This document shows positions 19,883-60,613 of a DNA stretch of 64,000 bases, one piece after another. The DNA comes from an uncultured virus (IMG/VR IMGVR_UViG_3300037322_000284) (Duplodnaviria > Heunggongvirae > Uroviricota > Caudoviricetes): IMG/VR virus record IMGVR_UViG_3300037322_000284. The stretch is one strand, 5' to 3'. The translations under genes were made by a program, and so were the position numbers. A model generated the notes under the pieces. The model saw nothing but the letters and a program-made list of their open reading frames with translations, did not search any database and had not been told where the DNA came from. Each line of letters starts with the position of its first letter. Within the stretch, counting starts at the first letter, position 1.

Positions 19883-21055
19883 TTATGTTATTTGTTTTAT
19901 TGGTAATTTCCTATTGTAACACTCTTGATTACCTGAAAACTTTAATTTTGGGACATACTTATACTCCCTATTCTCTATTTTTAAATCTTCCTCTTTTTTT
20001 GAAGCTTTTCTTCCATCATCAAACACAAAACATTTAATAATTTTATAATTGTAAGGTATTACGCTTTTATTAGGAAACCTATTCTTAATTGTTGTGAAAG
20101 TCTTCCCTATTTTGTAAAACTCTTCTTCATCGTTCCAACACTTTATCAAATAAACTTTAAAACTGTCAAAGTTTTTAGATTTTTCAGCACCTTTTATCCA
20201 ATCACTATATTTCCAACCAGTGTTACTTTCTAAAACTCGTAAATCACCACACTTCTTACACCCACTTCCACTTAAGTGTATATTTGGTTTTTGTTTGAAA
20301 ATACCGTGGTTATCTATTTTACACTCTATCTCTACTTCACTATTACTTTTTACGTAAATTGTTTGAGAGTAGTCATAAAAGTTGCTATGTATTTTATTAG
20401 CTTTTTCAATAAATTGATCGTTTGTCATAATTCTACTCTGAGACTTTAACGCATTTCCACAAGATGGGCATCCACTACCTTTTAAGAAATTATTTACATC
20501 TTTAGTAAAATCACCATGTATTCTACATGTAACTGTTATTTTTGTTTTTGAATCAGTATATAAGGTTTTACTGTAATCATATCTATCTCCGTGTTTATCT
20601 ATAAATTTTTGTAATTGTATAGAGTGGTCTTTTTTTAGATTGTTTCTCCTAACTATTTCTCCGCATTCAGAGCAACCACATGTTCTTAAGTGTACTTCAG
20701 GTGTAATATTAATTTCACCATGTGTTTTACATGAAATTTTTACCTTAGTAAATTTATTGATAAAAACAACACTAGAATAGTCATATTTATCTTTGTGTTT
20801 TAATATAGACTTATTTAAAAAATCAAAATATGTTAATGAATTACATATCCCAGTCTTTTTACTTCCGCATTTTCTACATCCTCTACCACTTAAATGTGAA
20901 TTTGGAGTTTGCTCAAATCTATGTTTTAATTTATTACAGGTTATAAACACTTTATCCGAATCCTTTACATAAACCACTTCACTATAATCGTACTTATCCC
21001 CATGTATGGCTGTTGCGTCTCTTATGAATTCCTCTCGTGTTTTCTTCTTTCCCAT
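19883..21055 (-). CDS. Homing endonuclease-like protein: four zinc-ribbon repeats plus GIY-YIG-like C-terminal domain
   Basis: Repeats of H(G)DKYDYS..CxxH(G).F...GCxxC; C-term VYLIKC..FYKIGKT. The ATG at 21076 lies inside the mini-IS end, so 21055 (MGKKK) is the likelier start. Confidence 0.75.
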   Translation of the reverse strand: MGKKKTREEFIRDATAIHGDKYDYSEVVYVKDSDKVFITCNKLKHRFEQTPNSHLSGRGCRKCGSKKTGICNSLTYFDFLNKSILKHKDKYDYSSVVFINKFTKVKISCKTHGEINITPEVHLRTCGCSECGEIVRRNNLKKDHSIQLQKFIDKHGDRYDYSKTLYTDSKTKITVTCRIHGDFTKDVNNFLKGSGCPSCGNALKSQSRIMTNDQFIEKANKIHSNFYDYSQTIYVKSNSEVEIECKIDNHGIFKQKPNIHLSGSGCKKCGDLRVLESNTGWKYSDWIKGAEKSKNFDSFKVYLIKCWNDEEEFYKIGKTFTTIKNRFPNKSVIPYNYKIIKCFVFDDGRKASKKEEDLKIENREYKYVPKLKFSGNQECYNRKLPIKQIT

Positions 21056-21069
21056 ATTAATTATATTTT

Positions 21070-21211
21070 TTGACATACTCCCACAGCTAAAGCAAGTGAG
21101 ATTCTTGAAAACGCTTAAACTATTGCCTTACGTTACCTCCAAAGGAAGATGCCCCTTCCAAATACCTGTTCGTTTAAAGCCCCAAGTGATAGGGTGTTCT
21201 TGAACGAGGTC
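21070..21211 (-). mobile_element. Non-autonomous mini-derivative of the tnpB element (partial left end fused to right end/omegaRNA scaffold)
   Basis: Reverse complement reads cctcgttcaagaacaccctatcacttggggcttta (=27755-27789) joined to aacaggtatttggaaggggcatc...gggagtatgtcaa (~29068-29168, few substitutions). Confidence 0.92.
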
Positions 21212-27880: not shown

Positions 27881-28009
27881 ATGGAAAAGAGAGAAAAAAT
27901 AGTGCCTGTTAGAGTTTCTTTAGAAGAAGAGAAAACCTTAACAGATAAAGCTAAAAAGATTGGATTAAAATTATCAACATATTTGAGACTTGCTGGATTA
28001 GAAAAATGA
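27881..28009 (+). CDS. Small ribbon-helix-helix (CopG/MobC-like) protein inside the IS
   Basis: MEKREKIVPVRVSLEEEKTLTDKAKKIGLKLSTYLRLAGLEK; ATGA overlap with tnpB. Confidence 0.7.
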   Translation: MEKREKIVPVRVSLEEEKTLTDKAKKIGLKLSTYLRLAGLEK

Positions 28010-29118
28010 TTAAAACTTATACCTATAAACTGTACAATAATGAAAAATACTCATCAAAATATGATGAGCAAATATCAGTATGCAGAATGGTGTATAACGT
28101 AGCAAAAGAGGTAAAAGAAGAGTCTTACAAGAAAGGTGTAAGTATTAACGGATTTGCCTTATCAAAACAACTTACGGAAGCTAAAAAAGAATTCCCTTGG
28201 TTAAAAAAAGTACACAGTCAAACACTTCAAGCTATTTTAGAAAGACTTGAGGAGGGATATAAAAAGTTTTTTAGAGATTTAAAAGCGGGAAAAACTTGTA
28301 GTAAACCTAATTGGGCTAAAAAAAGCAAATTTCAAACACTAACATTTAAACAAAATGTAAAAAGAACTGTTCAAGGATTTAAGTTACCTGGTTTTGGAGA
28401 AGTCAAAATATTCAACAATGAATATTTTTTTGACGGAATAATAAAACAAGCTAAACTAACTAAAAAAGCTGATGGATTATATTTGAATGTAATTGTAGAA
28501 ATTGAAAATATTAAAAGAGAGAATCAATCTAATAATATTATTTCAATTGATATGGGGATTACAAGATTTTTAACCACCTCTGACGGAGAAGTAATTGAGA
28601 ATCCTAAACACTTATTTAAAAAGATTAAAGAGTTAAGGGTTACTCAAAGAAAGTTAAGTAGGAAGTATCAAAAAGGTAAAAAACAATCTTTAAATTACTA
28701 CAAACAAGTGAACGTAGTTGCGAGATTACATAAGCAAGTTTCAGACACAAGGAAAGACTTTTTACATAAAGTTACTACCGATTTAGCAAATAATTACGAC
28801 TTAATAGTTGTTGAGGATTTAAACATTCAAAAGATGGTTAAATCTTCTAAACTAGCTAAACATATTTTAGATTGTAGTTGGGGTATGTTTTTTGAACTTT
28901 TAAAATCAAAGATAGAAGTTGTTAAAGTTAATCCTGCGTACAGTTCTCAAGAATGTTCAAAATGCGGGCATACTTGTAAAGAAAATAGACCAACACAATC
29001 TATATTTAATTGTGTAAAATGTAAACACACAGCAAATGCGGACGACCAAGCTTGTATAGTGCTGTTAAACAGATATTTGGAAGGGGCATCTTCCTTTGGA
29101 GGTAACGTAAGGCAATAG
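28006..29118 (+). CDS. tnpB: RNA-guided endonuclease TnpB
   Basis: KTYTYKLY N-term, SIDMG (RuvC-I), VVEDL (RuvC-II), CSKC..CVKC zinc finger, NADDQA (RuvC-III). Confidence 0.95.
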   Translation: MIKTYTYKLYNNEKYSSKYDEQISVCRMVYNVAKEVKEESYKKGVSINGFALSKQLTEAKKEFPWLKKVHSQTLQAILERLEEGYKKFFRDLKAGKTCSKPNWAKKSKFQTLTFKQNVKRTVQGFKLPGFGEVKIFNNEYFFDGIIKQAKLTKKADGLYLNVIVEIENIKRENQSNNIISIDMGITRFLTTSDGEVIENPKHLFKKIKELRVTQRKLSRKYQKGKKQSLNYYKQVNVVARLHKQVSDTRKDFLHKVTTDLANNYDLIVVEDLNIQKMVKSSKLAKHILDCSWGMFFELLKSKIEVVKVNPAYSSQECSKCGHTCKENRPTQSIFNCVKCKHTANADDQACIVLLNRYLEGASSFGGNVRQ

Positions 29119-29631: not shown

Positions 29632-30040
29632 TGAATCACACCCTTTTCATAAATTAATGTCTTTTGTTGAAGAGTATAATGAAAATAGAGAAAGCTTCAA
29701 TATGGAAAAGCTACAGTTAATGAGAGAAGATATTGCAATTAATCTTCTTTTACTTTCTGACAGTGTTAGTCAAACTATTGCTAACGCAGAAAGTAAAGAC
29801 TATGATAGAAAACGATTTTATGCACAAAGAGAAGAACATTATAGAAATGAAATAGACGAAAGAACAGGTAAAAATTACAATGTAGCTGATTCAGAGAGAT
29901 TAGCGAGATTAGATGCTAAAGAGATTGATGAAGCTTGCGCTTTTGCATATAAGCAAAAAGAGAGGGCGAGGTTAACAGTCATAGCTATTCAACAAATCTT
30001 GAACTCAATTAGCGGACGAATTTCTAATTACAGTAAATAA
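29624..30040 (+). CDS. Hypothetical helical protein
   Basis: 138 aa coupled ORF. Confidence 0.6.
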   Translation: MSNESHPFHKLMSFVEEYNENRESFNMEKLQLMREDIAINLLLLSDSVSQTIANAESKDYDRKRFYAQREEHYRNEIDERTGKNYNVADSERLARLDAKEIDEACAFAYKQKERARLTVIAIQQILNSISGRISNYSK

Positions 30041-30960
30041 TGTATCCTCAACAAAAAAATCACTCCCAATTTAAAGAGGAGTTTTTTAATAAAAGCACAA
30101 AATTTTCCGAAAAAACCCTACGATTTATAACAGAATACGAAAATGTCAAAAAGCACTTATTGGTAGAATTTGAGGACTACGTATATAAAATAACCCCTAA
30201 TAATTTATTTAAAGGTAAGGATCTGAATATAATGTCTTTGTTAAATAAAGAAAAGTATATAGAAAAAGAACTTCTAAAGTTAGGTATAAACTTAAAAATC
30301 GTAGAAGCAATAATATTTAAGAAAATAATATTTGAAACTAAGTATGGAAAATGTAAATTACCGTTTGATAAAATAAAAAAGTTTTCAAAACCTAACATAT
30401 CTTCAGCTATAAAGAAAACCGAGTTTATGATTAATGAGTTTACAGAGAAACATGGTAATAAGTATAACTATACGGGATCTGTATTTATAAACGCTATTAC
30501 AGAAGTAGATATTATTTGTAAGTTGCATGGGGTTTTTAGACAAGGGTATCCTCAACATAAAGCAGGTCAGGGTTGTCCGAAATGTGCGGGCATATCTAGA
30601 AAAGAAAAAACAGTTGGTAATGGGGGATGGGGTCACAGAGATTGGGAGATAACAGCTGAAAAATCAAGCAATTTCGACAGTTACAAACTTTATATAATTA
30701 GGGTATTTAATGATGAAGAGTCTTTTTACAAAATAGGTAGGACATATAGAAAAATAAAGAAAAGATTTGCTGGATTTATTTATAACTATGAAGTAATACA
30801 AATAAGGGAATCATTCACACCCGCTAAAATATATTTTTTAGAAAAAGTTTTTAAGGAGTATAATAAAGAATTTAAGTACGAACCAAAGAAAAAGTTTCAC
30901 GGTTACAGAGAGTGTTTCTCAAAAATAATAGATATAAATAATGGCGAAGAAATTAGTTAA
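30040..30960 (+). CDS. Homing endonuclease-like protein (same family as 19883-21055)
   Basis: HGNKYNY..CKLHG.F..GCPKC and LYIIRV..FYKIGRT...FHGYRECF. Confidence 0.7.
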   Translation: MYPQQKNHSQFKEEFFNKSTKFSEKTLRFITEYENVKKHLLVEFEDYVYKITPNNLFKGKDLNIMSLLNKEKYIEKELLKLGINLKIVEAIIFKKIIFETKYGKCKLPFDKIKKFSKPNISSAIKKTEFMINEFTEKHGNKYNYTGSVFINAITEVDIICKLHGVFRQGYPQHKAGQGCPKCAGISRKEKTVGNGGWGHRDWEITAEKSSNFDSYKLYIIRVFNDEESFYKIGRTYRKIKKRFAGFIYNYEVIQIRESFTPAKIYFLEKVFKEYNKEFKYEPKKKFHGYRECFSKIIDINNGEEIS

Positions 30961-32806: not shown

Positions 32807-33235
32807 ATGGCAGTAAAAAAGAAAGAAACAGTAGAATGGACTTATAATAATATTATAGTAGATAACATTTTAAAAACACCTGAAGGTTCCCTAGCATTCA
32901 TTTACAAGATATCTTTACTTGATGGCACAGGTCGTTATTATTATGGCCGTAAAACTATGTGGAAGCCACGCTATACGAGCGGTAAAAATAAAGGAATAAG
33001 TAAGGGGTTGTATGTTTGGCGAACTTACTGTGGTTCATCAAAGGAACTTACGGAATTAATCAAGGGTAATACACCTTACAAAAAAGAAATACTCAAATTC
33101 TGTTTCTCAAAAGCAGAAACAACTTATGAAGAAACTAAACAAATACTTTGCGGGGGAGGTTTGACAGACCCTCTATGTTTGAATTTTTGGATAAAAAGTT
33201 TGATTTACTCTAAACATTTAGAACCAAATAGTTAA
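32807..33235 (+). CDS. GIY-YIG family endonuclease
   Basis: FIYKI...YYYGRK...WRTYCGSS..L...KKEIL. Confidence 0.75.
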   Translation: MAVKKKETVEWTYNNIIVDNILKTPEGSLAFIYKISLLDGTGRYYYGRKTMWKPRYTSGKNKGISKGLYVWRTYCGSSKELTELIKGNTPYKKEILKFCFSKAETTYEETKQILCGGGLTDPLCLNFWIKSLIYSKHLEPNS

Positions 33236-33512: not shown

Positions 33513-34160
33513 ATGAAAGAACCGAACAGAGTTAGAAAATTAGAGATTAAGTATAATTTACAATTAAATGAAGAGCAAAAAGAAGCTAAAAGATTAATTT
33601 TAGATAACCAGATTGTAATAATTACTGGGCGTGCGGGATCGGGCAAAAGTTTGGTGGGAGCTATTACAGCTTTAGATTTTTTAAGTACAAAACAATGTGA
33701 TAAAATTTTAGTTACGAGAAGTGCAATAGAAGTAGGAAAATCATTGGGATATCTTCCTGGAAATTTAGATGACAAATTTAATGTGTATATCGAAGCACTA
33801 CTAGAAAATTTATACAAGTGTGCAGATAAGTCTAAAATAGACGAGTTTGTGAAAGATGGTAAGATACAAGGATTACCTGTCCAATATATTAGAGGTAAGA
33901 CAATTGATGATGTTTTATTAGTTGAAGAGGCTCAAAACTTAACAGTAAAAGAGATGGAAGCAATTTTATGTAGATTAGGTAAAACAGGTAAGATAGTAAT
34001 TAATGGAGATCAAGCTCAGCGTGATATAACAGAAACTTACACAGGATTAGATTTTGCAATTAAGTTATCTAAAAATATTAAAGGTATAAATCATATCAAA
34101 CTTAAAGAAAACCATAGGAGTGGATTAGTTGGAGAAATTTTAGATTATATTTATAAATAA
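33513..34160 (+). CDS. phoH: PhoH-like ATPase
   Basis: GRAGSGKS, LGYLPG, YIRGKT, EEAQN, RLG, GDQAQRD. Confidence 0.93.
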   Translation: MKEPNRVRKLEIKYNLQLNEEQKEAKRLILDNQIVIITGRAGSGKSLVGAITALDFLSTKQCDKILVTRSAIEVGKSLGYLPGNLDDKFNVYIEALLENLYKCADKSKIDEFVKDGKIQGLPVQYIRGKTIDDVLLVEEAQNLTVKEMEAILCRLGKTGKIVINGDQAQRDITETYTGLDFAIKLSKNIKGINHIKLKENHRSGLVGEILDYIYK

Positions 34161-34197
34161 ATTTGCAAGTTAAAAAGTAAAGTTGTATATTTGTAGA

Positions 34198-34401
34198 AGA
34201 TAAAAACAAGCTGAAATACAAGACGTAGCATTAGATGTAGAATTGACTTTGAAACAAAAGGTTGTCTAATGTTATAACTCTTAAACTAATAAAGAGTGTG
34301 TTCTTGTGCTAGGAAGTAGTAAGTAAGTGCTCCATTGATATCAGGGTTGAGGAGCTCCTGAATTATTTTCAACGGTTGGAATGTTGACTTGTTTTTTATC
34401 T
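34198..34401 (+). ncRNA. Putative ~200-nt multi-stem ncRNA
   Basis: Starts just after promoter 34162-34193; closing stem agataaaaacaag/cttgttttttatct; internal stems tagcattagat/gtctaatgtta and actctt/aagagt. Confidence 0.55.
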
Positions 34402-34610
34402 TTTTTGCGGAAAATTAAAATAAGTAAATACGAACCTTCTTTGGTGGAAGACAGACACATAATATGAGTTTATTATTCTCGGTAGAGAGTTCAAGATGAA
34501 ATTGCTTGTAAGAAGTTTTACTTAAATATCGGTTACATCCCCTCGAATAGTATTCTTGGACTGACCCACGTTGCTTGTTTAACCGAGAGTGTCAAGTGGG
34601 TTTATTTTTT

Positions 34611-34710
34611 GGAGTAAAAGGGTTGTGTGATGATTTTAGGTAGGCTAGGACAAACTAGATGGCTAATGATATGTAGCTTAACACTGGGGGGTTCGATTCC
34701 ACCTGCTCCA
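34611..34710 (+). ncRNA. tRNA-like RNA with atypical core
   Basis: Acceptor ggagta/tgctcc + A, T-loop ttcgatt; two internal hairpins, no canonical D or anticodon arm. Confidence 0.5.
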
Positions 34711-34765
34711 CAAAATAGACCACAAGAGGATTGACAAACAGTAAGGGTTTGTAAGTGGTAAAGTT

Positions 34766-34836
34766 TAGTCAATAGCTCAATTGGATAGAGTGGGGGATAA
34801 AACTCAGGGATATTGTTTCAAGCCCAATTTGACTAC
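34766..34836 (+). tRNA. Degenerate tRNA / tRNA-like element, anticodon unassignable
   Basis: Perfect acceptor tagtcaa/ttgacta, D-arm gctc-aattggata-gagt, shortened anticodon arm, imperfect T-arm. Confidence 0.55.
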
Positions 34837-34951
34837 CTATTCCAATCCCAAGGAAGTAAATAAAAGGAGAGATTAAAGTTGTTCTCACAAGACAACCGTT
34901 TGCGGAAAGACGTGAAAGATTCTGTGACTAATAGGAATAGACTATTCTTAA

Positions 34952-35158
34952 TTCGTGATGGTGTAATTGGAAGGCACGCCTAAAGTTAAGTCGGTAGGTG
35001 GTAAGGGCAATAAGAGGAGTATAATGATAGGTGGGAGTAATTAACCTCTGAACTGCCAAAGTTAACTATTATTACAAATTGAAATGACCCAAAAGTGGAA
35101 ACAAGAAGTGTACATTACTTGTGAAAGCTCCGTGAAGGTTCGAGTCCTTCTCACGAAA
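34952..35158 (+). ncRNA. tRNA-like RNA with ~130-nt structured insertion
   Basis: Acceptor ttcgtga/tcacgaa, D-arm gtg-taattggaagg-cac, T-arm gaagg-ttcgagt-ccttc; 207 nt total. Confidence 0.7.
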
Positions 35159-35427
35159 CATCAGTTACTTAATTTGAACATGGAAAGTAACAGACATTGT
35201 AGAGTTCAATCTAGTGAATGTTAAGTCTTAATCACGCAGAATTAAGGAGAGTACTTAGGGTAGGCATGTGCCAAACTCTCATTTTTAAAAAACATATACA
35301 CTCACAATTATGAAAATTTCAGGAAATGGCTTTACTTACTTTGTAGAGTGGGAAAGATTAACAAAAAATGGAGATTGGATAACTAAAGTTAAAGACTTAG
35401 AATTAAGAGCAACTAAAATTAAAAGTA

Positions 35428-36003
35428 ATGGAGAGTAATGCTAGGCATTTTATTGGTAACGTTGAAGTAGATAAAGAGGATATTAAAAATTGTACAACTA
35501 GTGCCACAAAAAAGAGTGGAAAGTCTATAAGTACAACTATGTTTCTTGATGAGGTATTAAGTGAGTTATTTTCAGATTGTAATAATACAAGAAAAAAAGA
35601 TAACAAGTATGATGAAAAAAATTGGGGAGTACTAAAAAATAACTTTAAAGGTTCTGTTTTTGAAACAACAGAGCATCCACTAAAAGAAACAAAGGGTGTT
35701 AAATATAATGATGGTAAATTACCTCTAGATATTATGCTAACAAGACAGTTCCCAAAAGCTTTAAATGCAGTGTGTCAAGCAACTATGTTTGGACACAATA
35801 AGTATAAAGATACAGATGTCGATTTTTTAAATTTTAAAAAAGTATTAGGGGGGAGTCAAACTTATGCGGATGCTTTACAAAGACACAGTGTTGACAAAAG
35901 TGTAATAGATTTAGACAGTGGATTGCCTCACATCTTTCATAAATGCTGGAATGCATTAGCAGAACTTGAATTATGGATTGAAGAAAATAAATTTGCACAT
36001 TAA
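35428..36003 (+). CDS. dATP/dGTP diphosphohydrolase domain (DUF5664-like) protein
   Basis: GVKYNDGKLP...FGHNKY...YADALQRH...SGLPHIFH..WNAL. Confidence 0.8.
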   Translation: MESNARHFIGNVEVDKEDIKNCTTSATKKSGKSISTTMFLDEVLSELFSDCNNTRKKDNKYDEKNWGVLKNNFKGSVFETTEHPLKETKGVKYNDGKLPLDIMLTRQFPKALNAVCQATMFGHNKYKDTDVDFLNFKKVLGGSQTYADALQRHSVDKSVIDLDSGLPHIFHKCWNALAELELWIEENKFAH

Positions 36004-37238: not shown

Positions 37239-38312
37239 ATGGAAGACAAGGTAAAAAGATTTGTGGAATTATCAATTAAATTCACAAAAAAAGTAGATGA
37301 TCTATTTAATAGTCCTAATACTGATATTACTAGTATTTCAGGCACTCTTATGAATTATACAGGCACTGTTATGAATTGTATGGTTACCCTTAGTGCAGAC
37401 TCTTCTCAAAACTTTGTAGAAAAGTCAAGGTCTGAAAAAATGCAGGAACAAACGGACGGATTAAAACTTTTGTCGGACGAGTATGATGAATACTTACACC
37501 TACAAAAGAACTTATTAAACTATTACAAATCGTTAGAAAATTTAAATGGAAAATAGAGAGTTAGTAAACCCGTATGAATACTCATACGAACAAGATCAAT
37601 TGATTTCAATAAACGCTAATGCTGTAACTGTTATAATGCAGTTCTTACAGCAAGTAATTGAAAAAGAGCCCTCAGTAGGTGCCTTAAGAGTATACCCTAA
37701 AAAAGTAGACGAGATTAAAGATGAAGATGGTAACTTATTAAAAGTTGCTATTGATTGGGCGGAACACACAGCAAACAGTTTCTTTTTTACTGCTGCTGAG
37801 GAAAATGGAGCTGTACCTATAACCACGGAGATATCTCTTAAAGCAAACCAATTACTTTTTGCACTCACACAAATACACCAAGATAATATTAACAAAGGGA
37901 TTGCTAAAAAATCAGAAGAAGTAAATGGAGAAGGAGTTTTTAAATCATAATCACTATTTAAACTTTATAAAAAAAATGTTAAAAGCTACTTTTGTCGGTT
38001 GGGAGACTTACAAAGGTAGCAAAACATTAAAAGTGATAATAGACGGCAAAGTGTTTCCTATGAAGTTAAGTGATGGAGATATAACGGAAGACACGTACAG
38101 ACAACTAATAACAGAACTAATGACCCCAAATGAAAAGGAATAGCGAAGATTTTAAAAAATTATACACGTGCCTAAGAGAAACAGAAGAGTTACATCAAAT
38201 GTTTAGAGGTATGAGTGGAGATTGGGAAAAAGATAAAAATAAATTTATAGAGTCACAACTTATAATTGAGGAAATGGCGAATATAGTAGATATAGAGTAT
38301 GACCAAGAGTAA
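37239..38312 (+). other. Four hypothetical ORFs (37239-37556, 37546-37950, 37925-38143, 38130-38312)
   Basis: Overlapping, translationally coupled ORFs. Confidence 0.6.
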
Positions 38313-39843
38313 TAATATTTTAATTGACGATTACAAGAAATTAGACGCTGGTTTTTTAGAAGCGTGTGACGCTGTAGCAAGGACTTTAGGAGTGGAAGGA
38401 AGATTAGCTATATTAGATAACAACACAGACCCGCCTATTGTAACAAAAGATGGTGTAAGTGTTATGAAGCACATAAGGTTCTCTAATAAAACCATGAATT
38501 TTGGAGCTTTACAGGCAATTGCAGGTGCGGCTAGAACTTTAGAAAAATCAGGAGATAGTACAACAACAACAGCAGTTTTTATGCAAGGTTTTTTAAGAAA
38601 ACTAAAGCGTGAGCACTTTAATAAGGCAGTTGAGAGAGGAATTTATAAAGGAGTTGAAGAAGTTTATAAAAAATTGGAAATTCTTAGTAAAAAAGCCTCA
38701 AAGTCAGACTTAAAGCGTATTGTAAAAACCGCTTGTAATAACGACGAAGATTTAGCCAATATTATTATACAAGCTTTCGACTATGCAGGTAAAGATGGCA
38801 TAGTAGAGTGTATTCAAAATAAAGACAAAGATAAAACAGAGTTTGTGAAGCAAGATGGGATGCTTTTAGATTCTCACGGGTATACATCACCTTTCTTTAT
38901 AAATAGAGAAGATAAAACGGTTTGTTTTGATGGGCAGAACGTTGGAATAATTTGTTCAGCCACTTGGGAGTACAGTTCTAAAATTATAGACTCTGTTAAG
39001 CATTTTTATTCTGAAAATAATAAAAAAACACCACTTGTGATTTTCTTAGAAAGACCTCACACAGATATGACTGATAAGCTTGTAGGAATAAAAGAAGTAG
39101 GTTATAATGTTTGTTGTGTGGCTACTAATGGGTATAATGAGTATGAAAGTCAAACGTTACTTGAAGATATCGCAAACTTTACAGGAGCTTCGGTTTATAA
39201 TCCTAGAGATTTAGAGAGTAAAGTTATTTTTGGATTAGCCGATAAGGTGGTTATTGATATAAATTCTACAAGTATTGTAGTTGAAAATATTCCACAAATT
39301 ATTAAAGACAAAGTAACAGCTTTAGAAAAAGCCGATAAAAAAGATAATAGAAGAGTTAAGAGACTTAAAGGAAAAGCCTCAATCATTGAAGTTGGGGGAC
39401 TAACACCAAGCCAGCAAAAAGAAACCTTTGACAGAGTAGAAGATGCAATTGCTTCAGTTAAAACTACAAATGTTGAAGGGTATATTGCAGGAGGGGGGAG
39501 TACCTTAGTTTATATTTCAGGCATAATGGATACTAAATTAGTATCTAAAGAAGAACAAAGAGGGTATGATTTGGTTAAAGTAGTTTTAAAAGAACCCTTT
39601 CTTAAAATTCTAAGCAATGCCAACAGAAGACAAAGCTTTTTTGGAAAACCTTATCTTAAGTCCTGTAGTAAATATGGATTTGGGTATAACGCCTCAACAG
39701 ATGAAATTGCAAACCTTATAGATGATGGAGTGATTGATTCCAAAAAGTCTATTAGGATAGCCTTAGAGTCAGCTACCGAGAGGGCAATTCAAATGTTTAA
39801 TATTTCCGTCATTGTTCATTTTCCTCAAGAGATGACTTTATAA
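38299..39843 (+). CDS. groEL: Phage chaperonin GroEL-like
   Basis: TKDGVSV, GDSTTT, DRVEDAI, EGYIAGGG, GVIDS. Confidence 0.92.
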   Translation: MTKSNNILIDDYKKLDAGFLEACDAVARTLGVEGRLAILDNNTDPPIVTKDGVSVMKHIRFSNKTMNFGALQAIAGAARTLEKSGDSTTTTAVFMQGFLRKLKREHFNKAVERGIYKGVEEVYKKLEILSKKASKSDLKRIVKTACNNDEDLANIIIQAFDYAGKDGIVECIQNKDKDKTEFVKQDGMLLDSHGYTSPFFINREDKTVCFDGQNVGIICSATWEYSSKIIDSVKHFYSENNKKTPLVIFLERPHTDMTDKLVGIKEVGYNVCCVATNGYNEYESQTLLEDIANFTGASVYNPRDLESKVIFGLADKVVIDINSTSIVVENIPQIIKDKVTALEKADKKDNRRVKRLKGKASIIEVGGLTPSQQKETFDRVEDAIASVKTTNVEGYIAGGGSTLVYISGIMDTKLVSKEEQRGYDLVKVVLKEPFLKILSNANRRQSFFGKPYLKSCSKYGFGYNASTDEIANLIDDGVIDSKKSIRIALESATERAIQMFNISVIVHFPQEMTL

Positions 39844-59692: not shown

Positions 59693-60613
59693 ATGTTTAA
59701 AAAATATCAACATTTAGAAAGATTTGGAACTACAGAAGTTCAAAACATTGAGTTAGGCGAATTATATGTATTCCCAAAAATTGACGGAACAAATGCAAGC
59801 GTATGGCTTCATAATGGAGAAATACAAGCAGGAAGCCGAACAAGACATTTGTCTATCGAACAAGATAATGCAGGTTTTTTAGAATGGGTTTTGAGACAAG
59901 AAAATCTATTAAATTATTTGAAAGAAAACCCAACTCATAGATTGTTTGGAGAATGGCTCGTGCCACATTCTTTAAAAACCTATCGTGCTGACGCTTGGAG
60001 AAAGTTTTATGTTTTTGAAGTTGTCGAAGATAGAATTAATGATGAAATTCAACACGAAAGCGATGAGAAATTTAATTATTTAAAATACGATAATTATAAA
60101 CCGATTTTAGAAAAATACGAAATAGATTTTATCCCTCCAATTGCAGTAATTAGAAATTCAAACTACGAACAATTAGTAAATCAATTAATTAAAAATGATT
60201 TTTTAATTGAAGAAGGGAAGGGTTATGGAGAAGGAGTTGTTTTAAAGAATTACGATTTTAAAAATAAATATGGTCGTAAAACTTGGGCTAAAATTGTAAC
60301 GAGTGAGTTTAAAGAAAAACACGCTAAAGTAATGGGTAAATCTACGATTGAAGGCAAAAAAATGGTAGAGGAAGAAATTGCTGAAAAATATGTGACTACT
60401 GCTTTTTGTGAAAAAGAATATGCAAAAATTGAAAGTTCTGATGGATGGACTTCTAAAATGATACCTAGATTGTTAAACGTAATTTACTACGAAATTGTAA
60501 AAGAAGAAAGTTGGAATTTTGTTAAAGAAAATCGTAATCCAACAATTAATTTTAAAACCCTTCAACACTTCGTTTTTGCAAAAGTTCGTGATAGATTACC
60601 GAACGTCTTTTAA
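59693..60613 (+). CDS. RNA ligase (Rnl2-like nucleotidyltransferase), cassette 2
   Basis: PKIDGTN (motif I), FGEW, FYVFE, GEGVVLK, AKIV. Confidence 0.85.
   Translation: MFKKYQHLERFGTTEVQNIELGELYVFPKIDGTNASVWLHNGEIQAGSRTRHLSIEQDNAGFLEWVLRQENLLNYLKENPTHRLFGEWLVPHSLKTYRADAWRKFYVFEVVEDRINDEIQHESDEKFNYLKYDNYKPILEKYEIDFIPPIAVIRNSNYEQLVNQLIKNDFLIEEGKGYGEGVVLKNYDFKNKYGRKTWAKIVTSEFKEKHAKVMGKSTIEGKKMVEEEIAEKYVTTAFCEKEYAKIESSDGWTSKMIPRLLNVIYYEIVKEESWNFVKENRNPTINFKTLQHFVFAKVRDRLPNVF

What the first reader, a model, noticed from the sequence alone, without database searches (positions are those of the whole stretch)
34952..35158. tRNA scaffold with a large structured insertion
Acceptor stem, D-arm and T-arm are canonical. 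The anticodon position holds ccta-(12 nt)-tagg followed by ~130 extra nt with further pairing (taatgatag/ctattatta; ggag/ctcc). It is shorter than typical tmRNAs or group I intron-containing tRNAs. It may be a tRNA-mimic ncRNA (decoy for anticodon nucleases, ribosome or synthetase ligand) or a tRNA with an unusual intron.
Basis: partly seen in the sequence, partly recalled or inferred. Interest (0 to 1): 0.7.

Follow-up and report, generated by a model that had tools for sequence, protein, structure and literature searches.

The report
Phage leucine-tRNA look-alike with giant arm
An uncultured phage carries a gene shaped like a leucine tRNA whose small side arm has grown into a 134-base folded domain and whose decoding loop is spoiled, so it is most likely a tRNA mimic rather than a working or spliced tRNA.

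Summary
Window 34952-35158 (+) holds a 7-bp acceptor stem, a canonical D arm, a canonical T arm and discriminator A. At the anticodon position sits a 5-bp stem with a 12-nt loop. A 134-nt insert (35000-35133) lies between that hairpin and the T arm, which is the variable-arm position.

Standard finders miss it, and no Rfam family matches the insert. The body is closest to the tRNA-Leu(UAA) of a related phage (T arm 17 of 17). I therefore read it as a class II tRNA-Leu derivative with a hugely expanded variable arm and a disabled anticodon arm.

An intron is not supported. No excision restores a normal tRNA, and ARAGORN's intron mode gives different "anticodons" in two copies that are 94% identical over the element.

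It lies in a roughly 1.1-kb non-coding unit behind a Bacteroidota-type promoter, with two other anticodon-defective tRNA look-alikes.

Its only full-length relative differs at 13 of 207 positions. None breaks a helix and two pairs changed on both sides. This supports a folded RNA, although folding energy is no better than for shuffled sequence.

The element is confined to one lineage. A natural 394-bp deletion removes its 5' part, so it is accessory.

My best reading is a tRNA-processed, non-decoding mimic or scaffold RNA. A decaying tRNA gene is the main rival.

The parts
34163..34193 (+). Promoter-like site TTGCAA-N19-TATATTTG (Bacteroidota -33/-7 type), 3 nt after the PhoH stop codon; start of the non-coding unit
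   Evidence: it belongs to a recurring TTGCAc...TAnnTTTG set. The pattern has 14 + strand and 7 - strand matches, against 4.5 expected per strand in shuffles. The same motif follows PhoH in relatives L007 and L009. No other such site lies before 35966.
34610..34712 (+). tRNA-like element A (about 100 nt): acceptor TGGAGTA/TGCTCCA and a T arm with GGTTCGATTCC; no recognisable D or anticodon arm
   Evidence: Against G001 there are no substitutions and one indel across 103 positions.
34766..34837 (+). tRNA-like element B: cloverleaf with a mismatched anticodon stem and a 6-nt loop; the T-stem pair G53-C61 is broken in the window but intact in G001
   Evidence: Rfam tRNA scores 29.4 bits in the window and 36.5 bits in G001. 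ARAGORN calls it 'tRNA-???(aa)'.
34952..34958 (+). Element C, acceptor stem 5' strand (TTCGTGA)
34961..34977 (+). Element C, D arm (GTGT AATTGGAAG GCAC)
   Evidence: Scored against 24 tRNAs, tRNA-Leu(UAA) of G010 and the window's own tRNA-Gln tie for best D arm (score 9).
34978..34999 (+). Element C, hairpin at the anticodon position: GCCTA/TAGGT with a 12-nt loop. Alternatively CCTAA/T(CGG)TAGG with a 3-nt bulge and the 7-nt loop AGTTAAG, which lacks U33
   Evidence: folded alone: -4.4 kcal/mol, z -2.28. Invariant in G001.
35000..35133 (+). Element C, 134-nt insert at the variable-arm position. A 16-nt linker leads to base stem 35016-35020/35127-35131 and long stem 35021-35029/35067-35075. 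Four hairpins follow at 35030-35049, 35051-35063, 35089-35098 and 35101-35122
   Evidence: Folds; pair bookkeeping; no Rfam family.
35134..35150 (+). Element C, T arm GAAGG TTCGAGT CCTTC
   Evidence: Identical 17 of 17 to tRNA-Leu(UAA) of phage G010. The pair A-U is U-A in G001, a two-sided change.
35151..35158 (+). Element C, acceptor 3' strand TCACGAA plus discriminator A; no encoded CCA
35247..35286 (+). Terminator-like hairpin GGAGAGU...ACUCUC followed by AUUUUU; probable end of the non-coding unit
   Evidence: -10.5 kcal/mol, z -1.16, weak. The consensus terminator scan found none in the region.
34630..35023 (.). Segment missing in a natural deletion variant. It covers the 3' part of A, all of B and the 5' 72 nt of C
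   Evidence: Metagenome contig L090. Contigs of runs X3 and X4 show a joint 34629->35024, 'skips 394', with 5-nt microhomology.

Best explanation
Element C is a real, unspliced, non-decoding tRNA-shaped RNA gene that descends from a phage class II tRNA-Leu(UAA) gene.

- The normally short extra (variable) arm has grown into a 134-nt domain: one long stem carrying two hairpins, plus two further hairpins.
- The anticodon arm has been disabled. It has either a 12-nt loop or, with a 3-nt bulge, a 7-nt loop that lacks the universal U33.

Inferred mechanism (not shown). It is transcribed from the Bacteroidota-type promoter just after phoH, as part of a roughly 1.1-kb non-coding unit with two other anticodon-defective tRNA look-alikes. 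Its intact acceptor stem, T arm and D-loop/T-loop elbow let host RNase P, 3'-end processing and the CCA-adding enzyme cut it out and stabilise it as an RNA of about 210 nt. The tRNA body therefore acts as a chassis that presents the extra domain.

It may also be a mimic that occupies tRNA-binding host factors. Candidates are tRNA-targeting defence nucleases, or LeuRS, which by recall does not read the anticodon.

It is an accessory gene, not an essential one.
For: Shown here:
1. The anatomy is as described.
2. Ancestry. My covariance model of C was searched over 84 sources (690,669 bases) and over the whole contigs of 20 related phages. Outside C's own lineage and L092, which my pattern search had fetched for its matching 3' end (31.9 bits, tRNA body only), the one clear hit is a canonical tRNA-Leu(UAA) in G010 (33.6 bits, E 6.5e-7).
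3. Among 24 tRNAs scored (23 of G010 plus the window's tRNA-Gln), that tRNA-Leu(UAA) ranks first, with T arm 17 of 17. tRNA-Leu is class II, with its extra arm exactly where the insert lies.
4. Structure is kept. Window and G001 differ at 13 of 207 positions. In a 55-pair model, 0 pairs are broken in G001. Two pairs changed on both sides: C-G to U-A in hairpin 35089-35098, and A-U to U-A in the T stem. Three single changes turn a mismatch into a pair or a G-U wobble into A-U. The first 69 nt are invariant.
5. In 100,000 random placements of 13 substitutions, the chance of at least 2 two-sided changes is 0.0024, and on average 5.2 pairs break. G001's own MFE fold gives the same helices independently.
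6. Transcription context: a promoter of the phage's recurring type at 34163-34193, no ORF of 50 aa or more over the element, the largest + strand coding gap between 24.3 and 64 kb, and a terminator-like hairpin at 35247-35286.
7. The two neighbours A and B share the same defect, an intact top half with no usable anticodon loop.
8. The window also encodes an RNA ligase (PF09414; phrog_548, E 1.8e-48). By recall this is a gene class tied to tRNA repair during phage-host conflict. It is context only.

From print: foreign RNAs embedded in a tRNA scaffold are expressed in vivo in E. coli (PMC3753655, abstract in search listing). Phage tRNAs are proposed to counter tRNA-targeting defences (PMC10264068, abstract in listing).
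Against: 1. No expression data. No RNA run holds the stretch, so transcription, processing and stability are inferred.
2. Folding energy is not better than shuffled sequence. The whole element has z -0.44. The insert alone has z +0.56 in the window and -0.64 in G001.
3. Only two haplotypes of the full element exist in everything I could search, so covariation rests on 2 pairs. My 55-pair model was partly chosen after seeing G001. Under the window-only MFE, 2 of the 13 changes break pairs.
4. It is dispensable. A 394-bp deletion that destroys A, B and the 5' part of C stands in contigs of two runs from two studies and in one metagenome contig.
5. No homologue of the insert was found: not in 80 loci around related PhoH genes, not in 20 whole contigs of relatives, and not through IMG/VR, metagenome or genome pattern scans.
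6. Relatives differ widely in tRNA content. G010 has 21 Rfam tRNA matches, whereas the four closest records have 0-2. This fits a decaying tRNA cluster.
7. In the window copy two helices carry mismatches (A70.C124 and U81.U96), and neighbour B has lost G53-C61.
Confidence: 0.5

Rival explanations
1. It is a decaying tRNA-Leu(UAA) gene. A once-functional phage tRNA was hit by an insertion in its variable arm and by small indels in its anticodon arm. It is now a pseudogene on its way out, like its neighbours A and B, and the RNA, if made, does nothing.
For: - A natural 394-bp deletion removes it.
- It is confined to one lineage.
- Neighbour B has lost a T-stem pair in the window, and both neighbours lack anticodon loops.
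- A related phage keeps 21 tRNAs while this lineage has almost none.
- In run X2 a canonical tRNA 5' half follows position 34609, where element A starts, so the locus is in flux (table 7).
- Folding energy is not above shuffles.
- The segment 34713-35427 diverges 3-8% against 0.2-1.4% in the flanking genes.
Against: - Two two-sided compensatory changes and no broken pair among 13 substitutions (P about 0.002 for the compensations alone).
- The first 69 nt are invariant although the neighbouring spacers differ by about 4%.
- A promoter of the phage's own type is kept in front of the unit.
Confidence: 0.3
2. It is a working tRNA gene interrupted by an intron of an unusual or unknown class. The intron would be removed by self-splicing or by an enzyme pair such as an endonuclease plus the phage RNA ligase.
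For: - ARAGORN's intron mode returns a model: tRNA-Cys(ACA) with a 123-nt intron.
- The phage encodes an RNA ligase.
- A metagenome tRNA with the same acceptor and T arm (L092, 25 of 25 nt identical to G001 at the 3' end) is read by ARAGORN as tRNA(UCA) with a 61-nt insert between positions 32 and 33.
Against: - The ARAGORN model needs an A.G mismatch, two linker bases, U37 and an unstructured 12-nt variable loop.
- In G001 the same program gives tRNA-Asn(AUU) with other boundaries. Neither ACA nor AUU is, by recall, a normal bacterial anticodon.
- No strand complementary to the 5' anticodon-stem strand exists near the T arm. The stem is closed locally, before the insert.
- No Rfam group I, group II or ribozyme match at E up to 10.
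- At 134 nt it is below the smallest group I intron I recall (about 205 nt).
- The host is bacterial by promoter type and by the nearest cultured relatives, Cellulophaga phages. By established knowledge such hosts lack the archaeal and eukaryal splicing endonuclease.
Confidence: 0.06
3. It is mainly a cis-acting processing signal. The three tRNA-like modules serve as RNase P and 3'-processing cut sites ('punctuation') that release other RNAs of the unit: the leader at 34200-34609 and the structured spacers. On this view the insert has no function of its own.
For: - Three tRNA-shaped modules lie in one promoter-to-terminator unit.
- All three keep the top half that RNase P recognises and have lost the decoding half.
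- tRNA-like 't-elements' that define RNA ends are known in plant mitochondria (PMC1920247, abstract in search listing).
Against: - It does not explain why the helices of the 134-nt insert are kept through compensatory change.
- A 72-nt module would do the same job.
- No processing data exist.
Confidence: 0.1

Closest known systems
Class II tRNA-Leu(UAA) of a related uncultured phage (G010; L095:1501-1581)
   Same: - T arm identical, 17 of 17.
- D arm 15 of 19 by eye (TGGTGAAATTGGTAAACAC against TGGTGTAATTGGAAGGCAC).
- Discriminator A73.
- The extra arm lies between anticodon stem and T stem.
- The loop still holds UUAA.
   Different: - The acceptor stem is entirely different.
- The variable region is 134 nt rather than 11 nt.
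- The anticodon loop is 12 nt (or 7 nt without U33) rather than CUUAAAA.
- It is not detected by ARAGORN in default mode or by Rfam at threshold.
tmRNA
   Same: A tRNA-like acceptor and T-arm module that carries a large structured insertion and is processed like a tRNA.
   Different: - ARAGORN's tmRNA mode finds nothing.
- There is no Rfam tmRNA match over C. The 7-bit tmRNA hit at 34690-34700 belongs to element A.
- C3-G70 stands in place of the G3.U70 alanine identity pair.
- C has a full D arm.
- I saw no tag reading frame.
- The insert emerges from the variable-arm position.
- A true tmRNA exists in a related phage locus (L057) and looks nothing like C.
Engineered 'tRNA scaffold' for recombinant RNA (PMC3753655, PMC3401473; abstracts in search listing only)
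   Same: A foreign structured RNA is embedded in a tRNA body, so that the cell processes and stabilises it as a tRNA.
   Different: The engineered insert replaces the anticodon stem-loop. Here the extra domain sits at the variable arm and is natural.
Group I intron of tRNA-Leu(UAA) in cyanobacteria and plastids (recalled)
   Same: The same tRNA species carries a structured insertion.
   Different: That intron lies inside the anticodon (recalled as between U34 and A35) and is more than 200 nt with a conserved catalytic core. Here the UUAA is uninterrupted, the insert is 134 nt, it lies after the anticodon stem, and it matches no Rfam intron model.
Stable RNAs 'species 1 and 2' of the phage T4 tRNA gene cluster (recalled; no sequence or model available here)
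   Same: Phage-encoded small stable RNAs of unknown function, longer than tRNAs, co-transcribed and processed with tRNA genes.
   Different: No homology could be tested. My literature search returned no paper describing them, so the comparison rests on memory.
Bacterial Y RNA-like YrlA (Rfam RF02553; PMC4201824, abstract in listing)
   Same: A non-coding RNA with a tRNA-mimicking module, some copies phage-borne.
   Different: By recall, in YrlA the tRNA-like domain is internal and the RNA ends form the Ro-binding stem. Here the ends form the acceptor stem. There is no RF02553 match in the window region.

Membership tests
Canonical tRNA (Rfam RF00005; class II tRNA-Leu) | 7-bp acceptor stem with unpaired discriminator | tested here: met
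   TTCGTGA/TCACGAA pairs 7 of 7 Watson-Crick, followed by A73.
Canonical tRNA (Rfam RF00005; class II tRNA-Leu) | D arm with U8, A14, G18G19 and A21; T arm with G53-C61 and a T-loop of TTCRA type | tested here: met
   Read. The T arm equals that of a bona fide tRNA-Leu(UAA) 17 of 17.
Canonical tRNA (Rfam RF00005; class II tRNA-Leu) | 5-bp anticodon stem closing a 7-nt loop with U33 and a purine at 37 | tested here: not met
   The 5-bp stem closes a 12-nt loop. The alternative register, with a 3-nt bulge, gives the loop AGUUAAG with G at position 33.
Canonical tRNA (Rfam RF00005; class II tRNA-Leu) | Variable region of 4-5 nt (class I) or about 10-24 nt (class II) | tested here: not met
   134 nt lie between the anticodon stem and the T stem (35000-35133).
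Canonical tRNA (Rfam RF00005; class II tRNA-Leu) | Passes standard tRNA detectors | tested here: not met
   ARAGORN in default mode gives no call. Rfam at gathering score gives no call. In the permissive scan only the T arm scores, at 12.7 bits.
Group I intron-bearing tRNA | Match to group I intron covariance models and a conserved catalytic core | tested here: not met
   No intron family among matches at E up to 10, in 1.4 kb and in 231 nt.
Group I intron-bearing tRNA | Removal of the insert restores a canonical anticodon arm with a conserved anticodon | tested here: not met
   ARAGORN -i gives Cys(ACA) with a 123-nt intron in the window and Asn(AUU) with a 128-nt intron in G001. There is no 3' partner strand for the anticodon stem next to the T arm.
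Archaeal/eukaryal protein-spliced tRNA intron | Bulge-helix-bulge motif at the exon-intron borders, and a host with a splicing endonuclease | tested here: inconclusive
   By eye, no pairing between the two borders would give two 3-nt bulges around a 4-bp helix. No formal BHB search was run. The host is inferred to be bacterial from the promoter type and the nearest cultured phages.
tmRNA | Detection by tmRNA models, G3.U70, and a tag reading frame | tested here: not met
   ARAGORN -m finds 0 genes. There is no Rfam tmRNA match over C. The third pair is C3-G70.
YrlA / bacterial Y RNA | Match to RF02553, with a Ro-binding terminal stem and an internal tRNA-like domain | tested here: not met
   No RF02553 match in the window region. 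The RNA ends form an acceptor stem instead.
T4 species 1/2 stable RNAs | Sequence or structure homology to the T4 rnaC/rnaD products | not testable with these tools
   No model or sequence was at hand. blastn of the whole gap against 50,697 phage records found nothing.

The most novel reading that the evidence does not exclude
C is a natural 'tRNA scaffold'. On this reading, the phage has turned a leucine-tRNA chassis into a display platform for a fast-evolving 134-nt effector domain. The chassis is still recognised by RNase P, the CCA-adding enzyme and perhaps LeuRS, which by recall does not read the anticodon. C is one of a set of three anticodon-less tRNA mimics made from a dedicated non-coding operon. 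Their role would be to decoy or titrate host tRNA-targeting defence nucleases or tRNA-binding enzymes. The same acceptor and T-arm 'top half' recurs in other uncultured phages around inserts of 61 to about 230 nt (L092, L005/L091), so this could be a wider, unrecognised class of phage RNAs.
Probability: 0.2. Interest if true: 0.75.

Novelty: new variant of a known kind. Interest (0 to 1): 0.45.

Why it matters
Phage tRNA genes are usually read as codon supplements or as replacements for tRNAs cut by host defences. A phage RNA that keeps only the processing and recognition half of a tRNA, and uses it to carry a large structured domain, would be different. It would be a natural version of the engineered tRNA scaffold and a new kind of phage non-coding RNA.

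Such genes are invisible to ARAGORN in default mode and to Rfam. Comparable ones may therefore be under-counted.

If it is only a decaying tRNA gene, it still documents how phage tRNA clusters erode: by insertion into the variable arm, small anticodon-arm indels and microhomology deletions.

Tried and rejected
**Searches that found nothing**
- Known RNA families: nothing over the element at gathering score or at E up to 10. A 14.8-bit resemblance to the L19-Flavobacteria leader (gathering score 31.5) is below any threshold, and G001 changes the matched consensus.
- blastn of the 1.27-kb gap against 50,697 phage records: no match.
- blastn against all fetched loci: only the G001 contig.
- Paralogue or antisense target in the window: only 9-15-nt chance matches.
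- IMG/VR pattern scans for the 5' half and for the anticodon-position hairpin (8 other hits, all unrelated, mostly protein-coding stretches by eye): no insert-less allele and no further relative.
- Genome-contig scan for the 3' 21-mer: 1 hit, in a coding region. No cellular tRNA shares this acceptor and T arm.

**Recoding**
- I tested whether C could be a suppressor tRNA. Opening TAA lengthens everything in this AT-rich DNA and so says nothing.

**Expression**
- No RNA holder is listed among public runs.

**Other**
- Loosened split-tRNA scan: swamped by AT-rich false positives.
- The consensus terminator scan found none in the region.
- MAFFT alignment of C with short tRNAs was uninformative because of the length difference. 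I replaced it with arm-by-arm scoring.
- One search failed on a script error and was repeated.
- Literature: 6 searches returned no description of a phage tRNA-like RNA with a variable arm of about 100 nt or more. Subscription journals are not covered.

Full report
**1. What is there**

The window is phage DNA.
- It holds dense short ORFs at about 30% G+C.
- It encodes portal, large terminase and virion proteins, a RecA/UvsX-like protein, PhoH, a GroEL-like chaperonin, TnpB, GIY-YIG and HNH endonucleases, and an RNA ligase.
- The capsid-region protein is distantly like those of Cellulophaga phages phi17:2 and phi4:1, at 31% identity.
- A recurring promoter-like motif, TTGCAc-N19-TAnnTTTG, matches what I recall as the Bacteroidota -33/-7 consensus. 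A Bacteroidota host is therefore likely.

Between phoH (33513-34160) and the next coding sequence lies the largest + strand coding gap of the 24.3-64 kb region. The finding sits in that gap.

At 34952-35158 the sequence shows:
- a 7-bp Watson-Crick acceptor stem (TTCGTGA/TCACGAA) with discriminator A;
- U8 and a D arm, GTGT-AATTGGAAG-GCAC, with A14, G18G19 and A21;
- a T arm, GAAGG-TTCGAGT-CCTTC;
- at the anticodon position, GCCTA-AAGTTAAGTCGG-TAGGT, a 5-bp stem with a 12-nt loop;
- then 134 nt (35000-35133) before the T arm.

In my strict scan of the whole window, only this element and the annotated tRNA-Gln combine a TTCGA-type T loop closed by G-C with a perfect 7-bp acceptor partner. That is 2 of the 7 candidates listed. 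ARAGORN in default mode and Rfam at gathering score both miss the element.

**2. Where the extra sequence sits, and what the body descends from**

The anticodon-position stem is closed locally, before the insert. The insert therefore occupies the variable-arm position, not the anticodon loop.

I built a covariance model from the two known copies and searched two sets:
- 84 sources totalling 690,669 bases;
- the whole contigs of 20 related phages.

Outside C's own lineage there are two clear hits. One is L092, which my pattern search had fetched for its matching 3' end (31.9 bits, tRNA body only). The other is a canonical tRNA-Leu(UAA) in phage G010 (33.6 bits, E 6.5e-7).

I then scored the D arm and T arm against 24 tRNAs: all 23 of that phage plus the window's own tRNA-Gln. 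tRNA-Leu(UAA) ranks first, with an identical T arm (17 of 17). The window's tRNA-Gln is second.

tRNA-Leu is a class II tRNA, with its extra arm exactly where the insert lies, and C's loop still contains UUAA. Read in another register, the anticodon arm is CCUAA/U(CGG)UAGG with the 7-nt loop AGUUAAG. That is a once-normal arm with a 3-nt bulge and without U33.

I conclude that C derives from a tRNA-Leu(UAA)-like gene. Its variable arm expanded about twelve-fold and its anticodon arm was damaged.

**3. Not an intron, tmRNA or known RNA**

- No Rfam family matches the insert, even at E up to 10.
- ARAGORN's tmRNA mode finds nothing, and the third acceptor pair is C-G, not G.U.
- ARAGORN's intron mode does return a model, tRNA-Cys(ACA) with a 123-nt intron. 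It needs a mismatch, two linker bases, U37 and an unstructured long variable loop.
- On the 94%-identical copy in G001, the same mode returns tRNA-Asn(AUU) with a 128-nt intron. A real spliced tRNA would keep its anticodon.
- The genome shows no sign of stop-codon recoding that would call for a suppressor tRNA.

**4. Context**

A promoter-like site of the phage's own recurring type (34163-34193) follows the phoH stop codon. The same motif follows phoH in relatives L007 and L009. No second such site occurs before 35966. A weak terminator-like hairpin with a U run lies at 35247-35286.

The unit also holds two other tRNA-shaped modules:
- A (34610-34712) has an acceptor and a T arm only.
- B (34766-34837) is a cloverleaf with a mismatched anticodon stem and a 6-nt loop. 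It scores 29.4 bits in Rfam tRNA here and 36.5 bits in G001.

All three keep the 'top half' and lack a usable anticodon loop.

**5. Relatives and variation**

The only full-length relative is IMG/VR contig G001, which shares 95% identity over the gap. Run X1 carries the same haplotype.

Divergence between the window and G001 is uneven:

| Segment | Divergence |
|---|---|
| Flanking genes | 0.2-1.4% (third codon positions 0-1.9%) |
| Spacers near C | 3.7-4.4% |
| C's 134-nt insert | 8.2% (11 positions) |
| C's first 48 nt | 0% |

The segment is either mosaic, recombined in from a more distant strain, or fast-evolving.

Of the 13 differences inside C:
- none breaks a pair of my 55-pair model in G001;
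- two pairs changed on both sides (C-G to U-A in hairpin 35089-35098, and A-U to U-A in the T stem);
- three single changes turn a window mismatch into a pair or a G-U wobble into A-U;
- one turns A-U into G-U;
- four fall in one 4-nt hairpin loop (GUAC to ACGU);
- one is unpaired.

Random placement of 13 substitutions gives at least 2 two-sided changes in 0.24% of 100,000 trials, and breaks 5.2 pairs on average.

Caveats:
- Part of the model was chosen after I had seen G001. Under the window-only fold, two changes break pairs.
- G001's own MFE fold does give the same helices independently.
- There are only two haplotypes.
- Folding energies are not better than shuffles.

**6. Evidence that it is dispensable and young**

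- Metagenome contig L090 and contigs of runs X3 and X4 (two studies) carry a 394-bp deletion, 34630-35023, at a 5-nt microhomology. It fuses the 5' part of A to the middle of C's insert.
- In run X2 a contig leaves the window sequence at 34609 and continues with what reads as the 5' half of an ordinary tRNA (table 7).
- G010 has 21 Rfam tRNA matches, whereas the four closest records have 0-2.
- No further homologue of the insert or of the 5' half was found in IMG/VR, the metagenome collection or the genome collection.

**7. Interpretation**

Shown:
- a tRNA-Leu-derived gene with an intact top half and elbow;
- a non-canonical anticodon arm;
- a 134-nt extra domain at the variable-arm position;
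- helices kept through substitution;
- a place in a promoter-led non-coding unit;
- restriction to one lineage, and loss in some strains.

Inferred:
- It is transcribed and cut out by RNase P and 3' processing.
- It receives CCA and accumulates as a stable RNA of about 210 nt that cannot decode.
- The tRNA body then acts as a chassis or mimic.

Two functional directions are plausible.
- Decoy or sponge for tRNA-binding host factors. These include tRNA-targeting defence nucleases, a widespread class (PMC10264068 abstract; PMC13056530 passages read).
- Carrier for an effector domain, as in engineered tRNA scaffolds (PMC3753655, abstract).

By recalled synthetase biology, LeuRS ignores the anticodon and relies on A73 and the tertiary core. 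Leucylation is therefore conceivable but untested.

The main rival, at about 0.3, is plain decay of a tRNA cluster. The compensatory changes argue against it, while the deletions and the narrow distribution argue for it.

**8. Novelty**

This is a new variant of a known kind, a phage tRNA-like RNA or aberrant class II tRNA. My six literature searches found no described phage tRNA-like RNA with a variable arm of about 100 nt or more; subscription journals are not covered. An earlier report of this scan (e1-5391553), which I did not check, describes a 65-nt arm in a T4-like phage.

It surrounds a 61-nt insert in L092 (131 nt in all) and about 230 nt in L005/L091 (303 nt, CCA encoded). Of the distinct sequences retrieved by the strict 3' pattern, 3 of the 3 that have a complete acceptor carry long inserts, and none is a normal-length tRNA. 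A relaxed pattern also retrieved a 71-nt form with an 8-nt loop, L103.

This hints at a wider class. But the pattern itself selected for the shared 3' end, so homology is not established.

Noticed in passing
window 34610-34712 and 34766-34837: Two further tRNA-shaped modules lie upstream in the same non-coding unit. A has an acceptor and T arm only. B is a cloverleaf with a 6-nt 'anticodon' loop. Both lack a usable anticodon loop. B has lost the G53-C61 pair in the window but not in G001.
   Followed up: partly
window 34530-34609; L007:4715-4800: A leader motif is shared with a relative whose PhoH is 85% identical: GAATAGTATTCTTGG.CTGA, then a hairpin enclosing GCTTGTT...ACCG.GAG, then a U run. 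It has no Rfam match. It may be a conserved phage RNA or an attenuator.
   Followed up: no
window 34713-35427 versus G001: Local divergence is 3-8%, against 0.2-1.4% in the flanking genes (third codon positions 0-1.9%). This is a mosaic or fast-evolving patch centred on the tRNA-like cluster. A GIY-YIG (SegE-like) endonuclease gene lies 1.5 kb upstream, at 32807-33232.
   Followed up: partly
L005 (- strand, 1501-1803) = L091: A 303-nt element sits in a phage tRNA array. It has the same acceptor and T arm as C and an encoded CCA. It has no D arm. Directly after the acceptor strand comes a 7-bp hairpin with a perfect anticodon-type loop, AUUCUGA. No Rfam or ARAGORN call was made.
   Followed up: partly
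L092:791-925: A 131-nt tRNA has a 3' end identical to G001's C at 25 of 25 nt. ARAGORN -i reads it as tRNA(UCA), an opal-suppressor type, with a 61-nt insert between positions 32 and 33. Its fold has z -2.4.
   Followed up: partly
L103 (about 71 nt ending at the pattern match); L100 and L104: L103 is a 71-nt tRNA-like gene with acceptor TTCGTGG/TCACGAA and an 8-nt anticodon loop, AAUUUAGA. ARAGORN does not call it. L100 and L104 carry roughly 50-nt 'minihelix' hairpins (acceptor-like stem plus T loop) inside the tRNA arrays of two other phages.
   Followed up: no
L022:4880-5019; L025:5796-5898 (= L028:6339-6441): Other over-long tRNA-like genes occur near PhoH in relatives. One is a 140-nt tRNA-Leu-like gene, about 230 nt after the PhoH stop, with a hairpin of about 23 nt inside the D loop. 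Another is a 103-nt cloverleaf with a 33-nt variable arm. Neither is called by ARAGORN.
   Followed up: partly
run X2, contig leaving the window at 34609 (table 7): In another strain the sequence after 34609 continues as the 5' half of an ordinary tRNA (…TAGCTCAGTTGGTAGAGC…) in place of element A.
   Followed up: no
window 28006-29115; 59693-60610; 38299-39840: TnpB (OrfB_IS605 plus Cas12f-like TNB domain), an RNA ligase (PF09414, phrog_548) and a GroEL-like chaperonin are encoded in the window.
   Followed up: no
window 19883-21076 (-) and 30040-30960 (+): HNH endonuclease-like ORFs abut the large terminase gene and the RecA-like gene. They may be homing endonucleases.
   Followed up: no
window 35310-35438: A small ORF of about 42 aa precedes the 35428 gene. 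G001, X3 and X4 carry an in-frame 27-nt insertion in it, which fits a coding sequence. The truly non-coding gap is therefore about 34161-35309.
   Followed up: no
L057:1601-2023 (-): A related phage locus encodes a genuine tmRNA with tag DDTQEEASYEVELAVAA.
   Followed up: no
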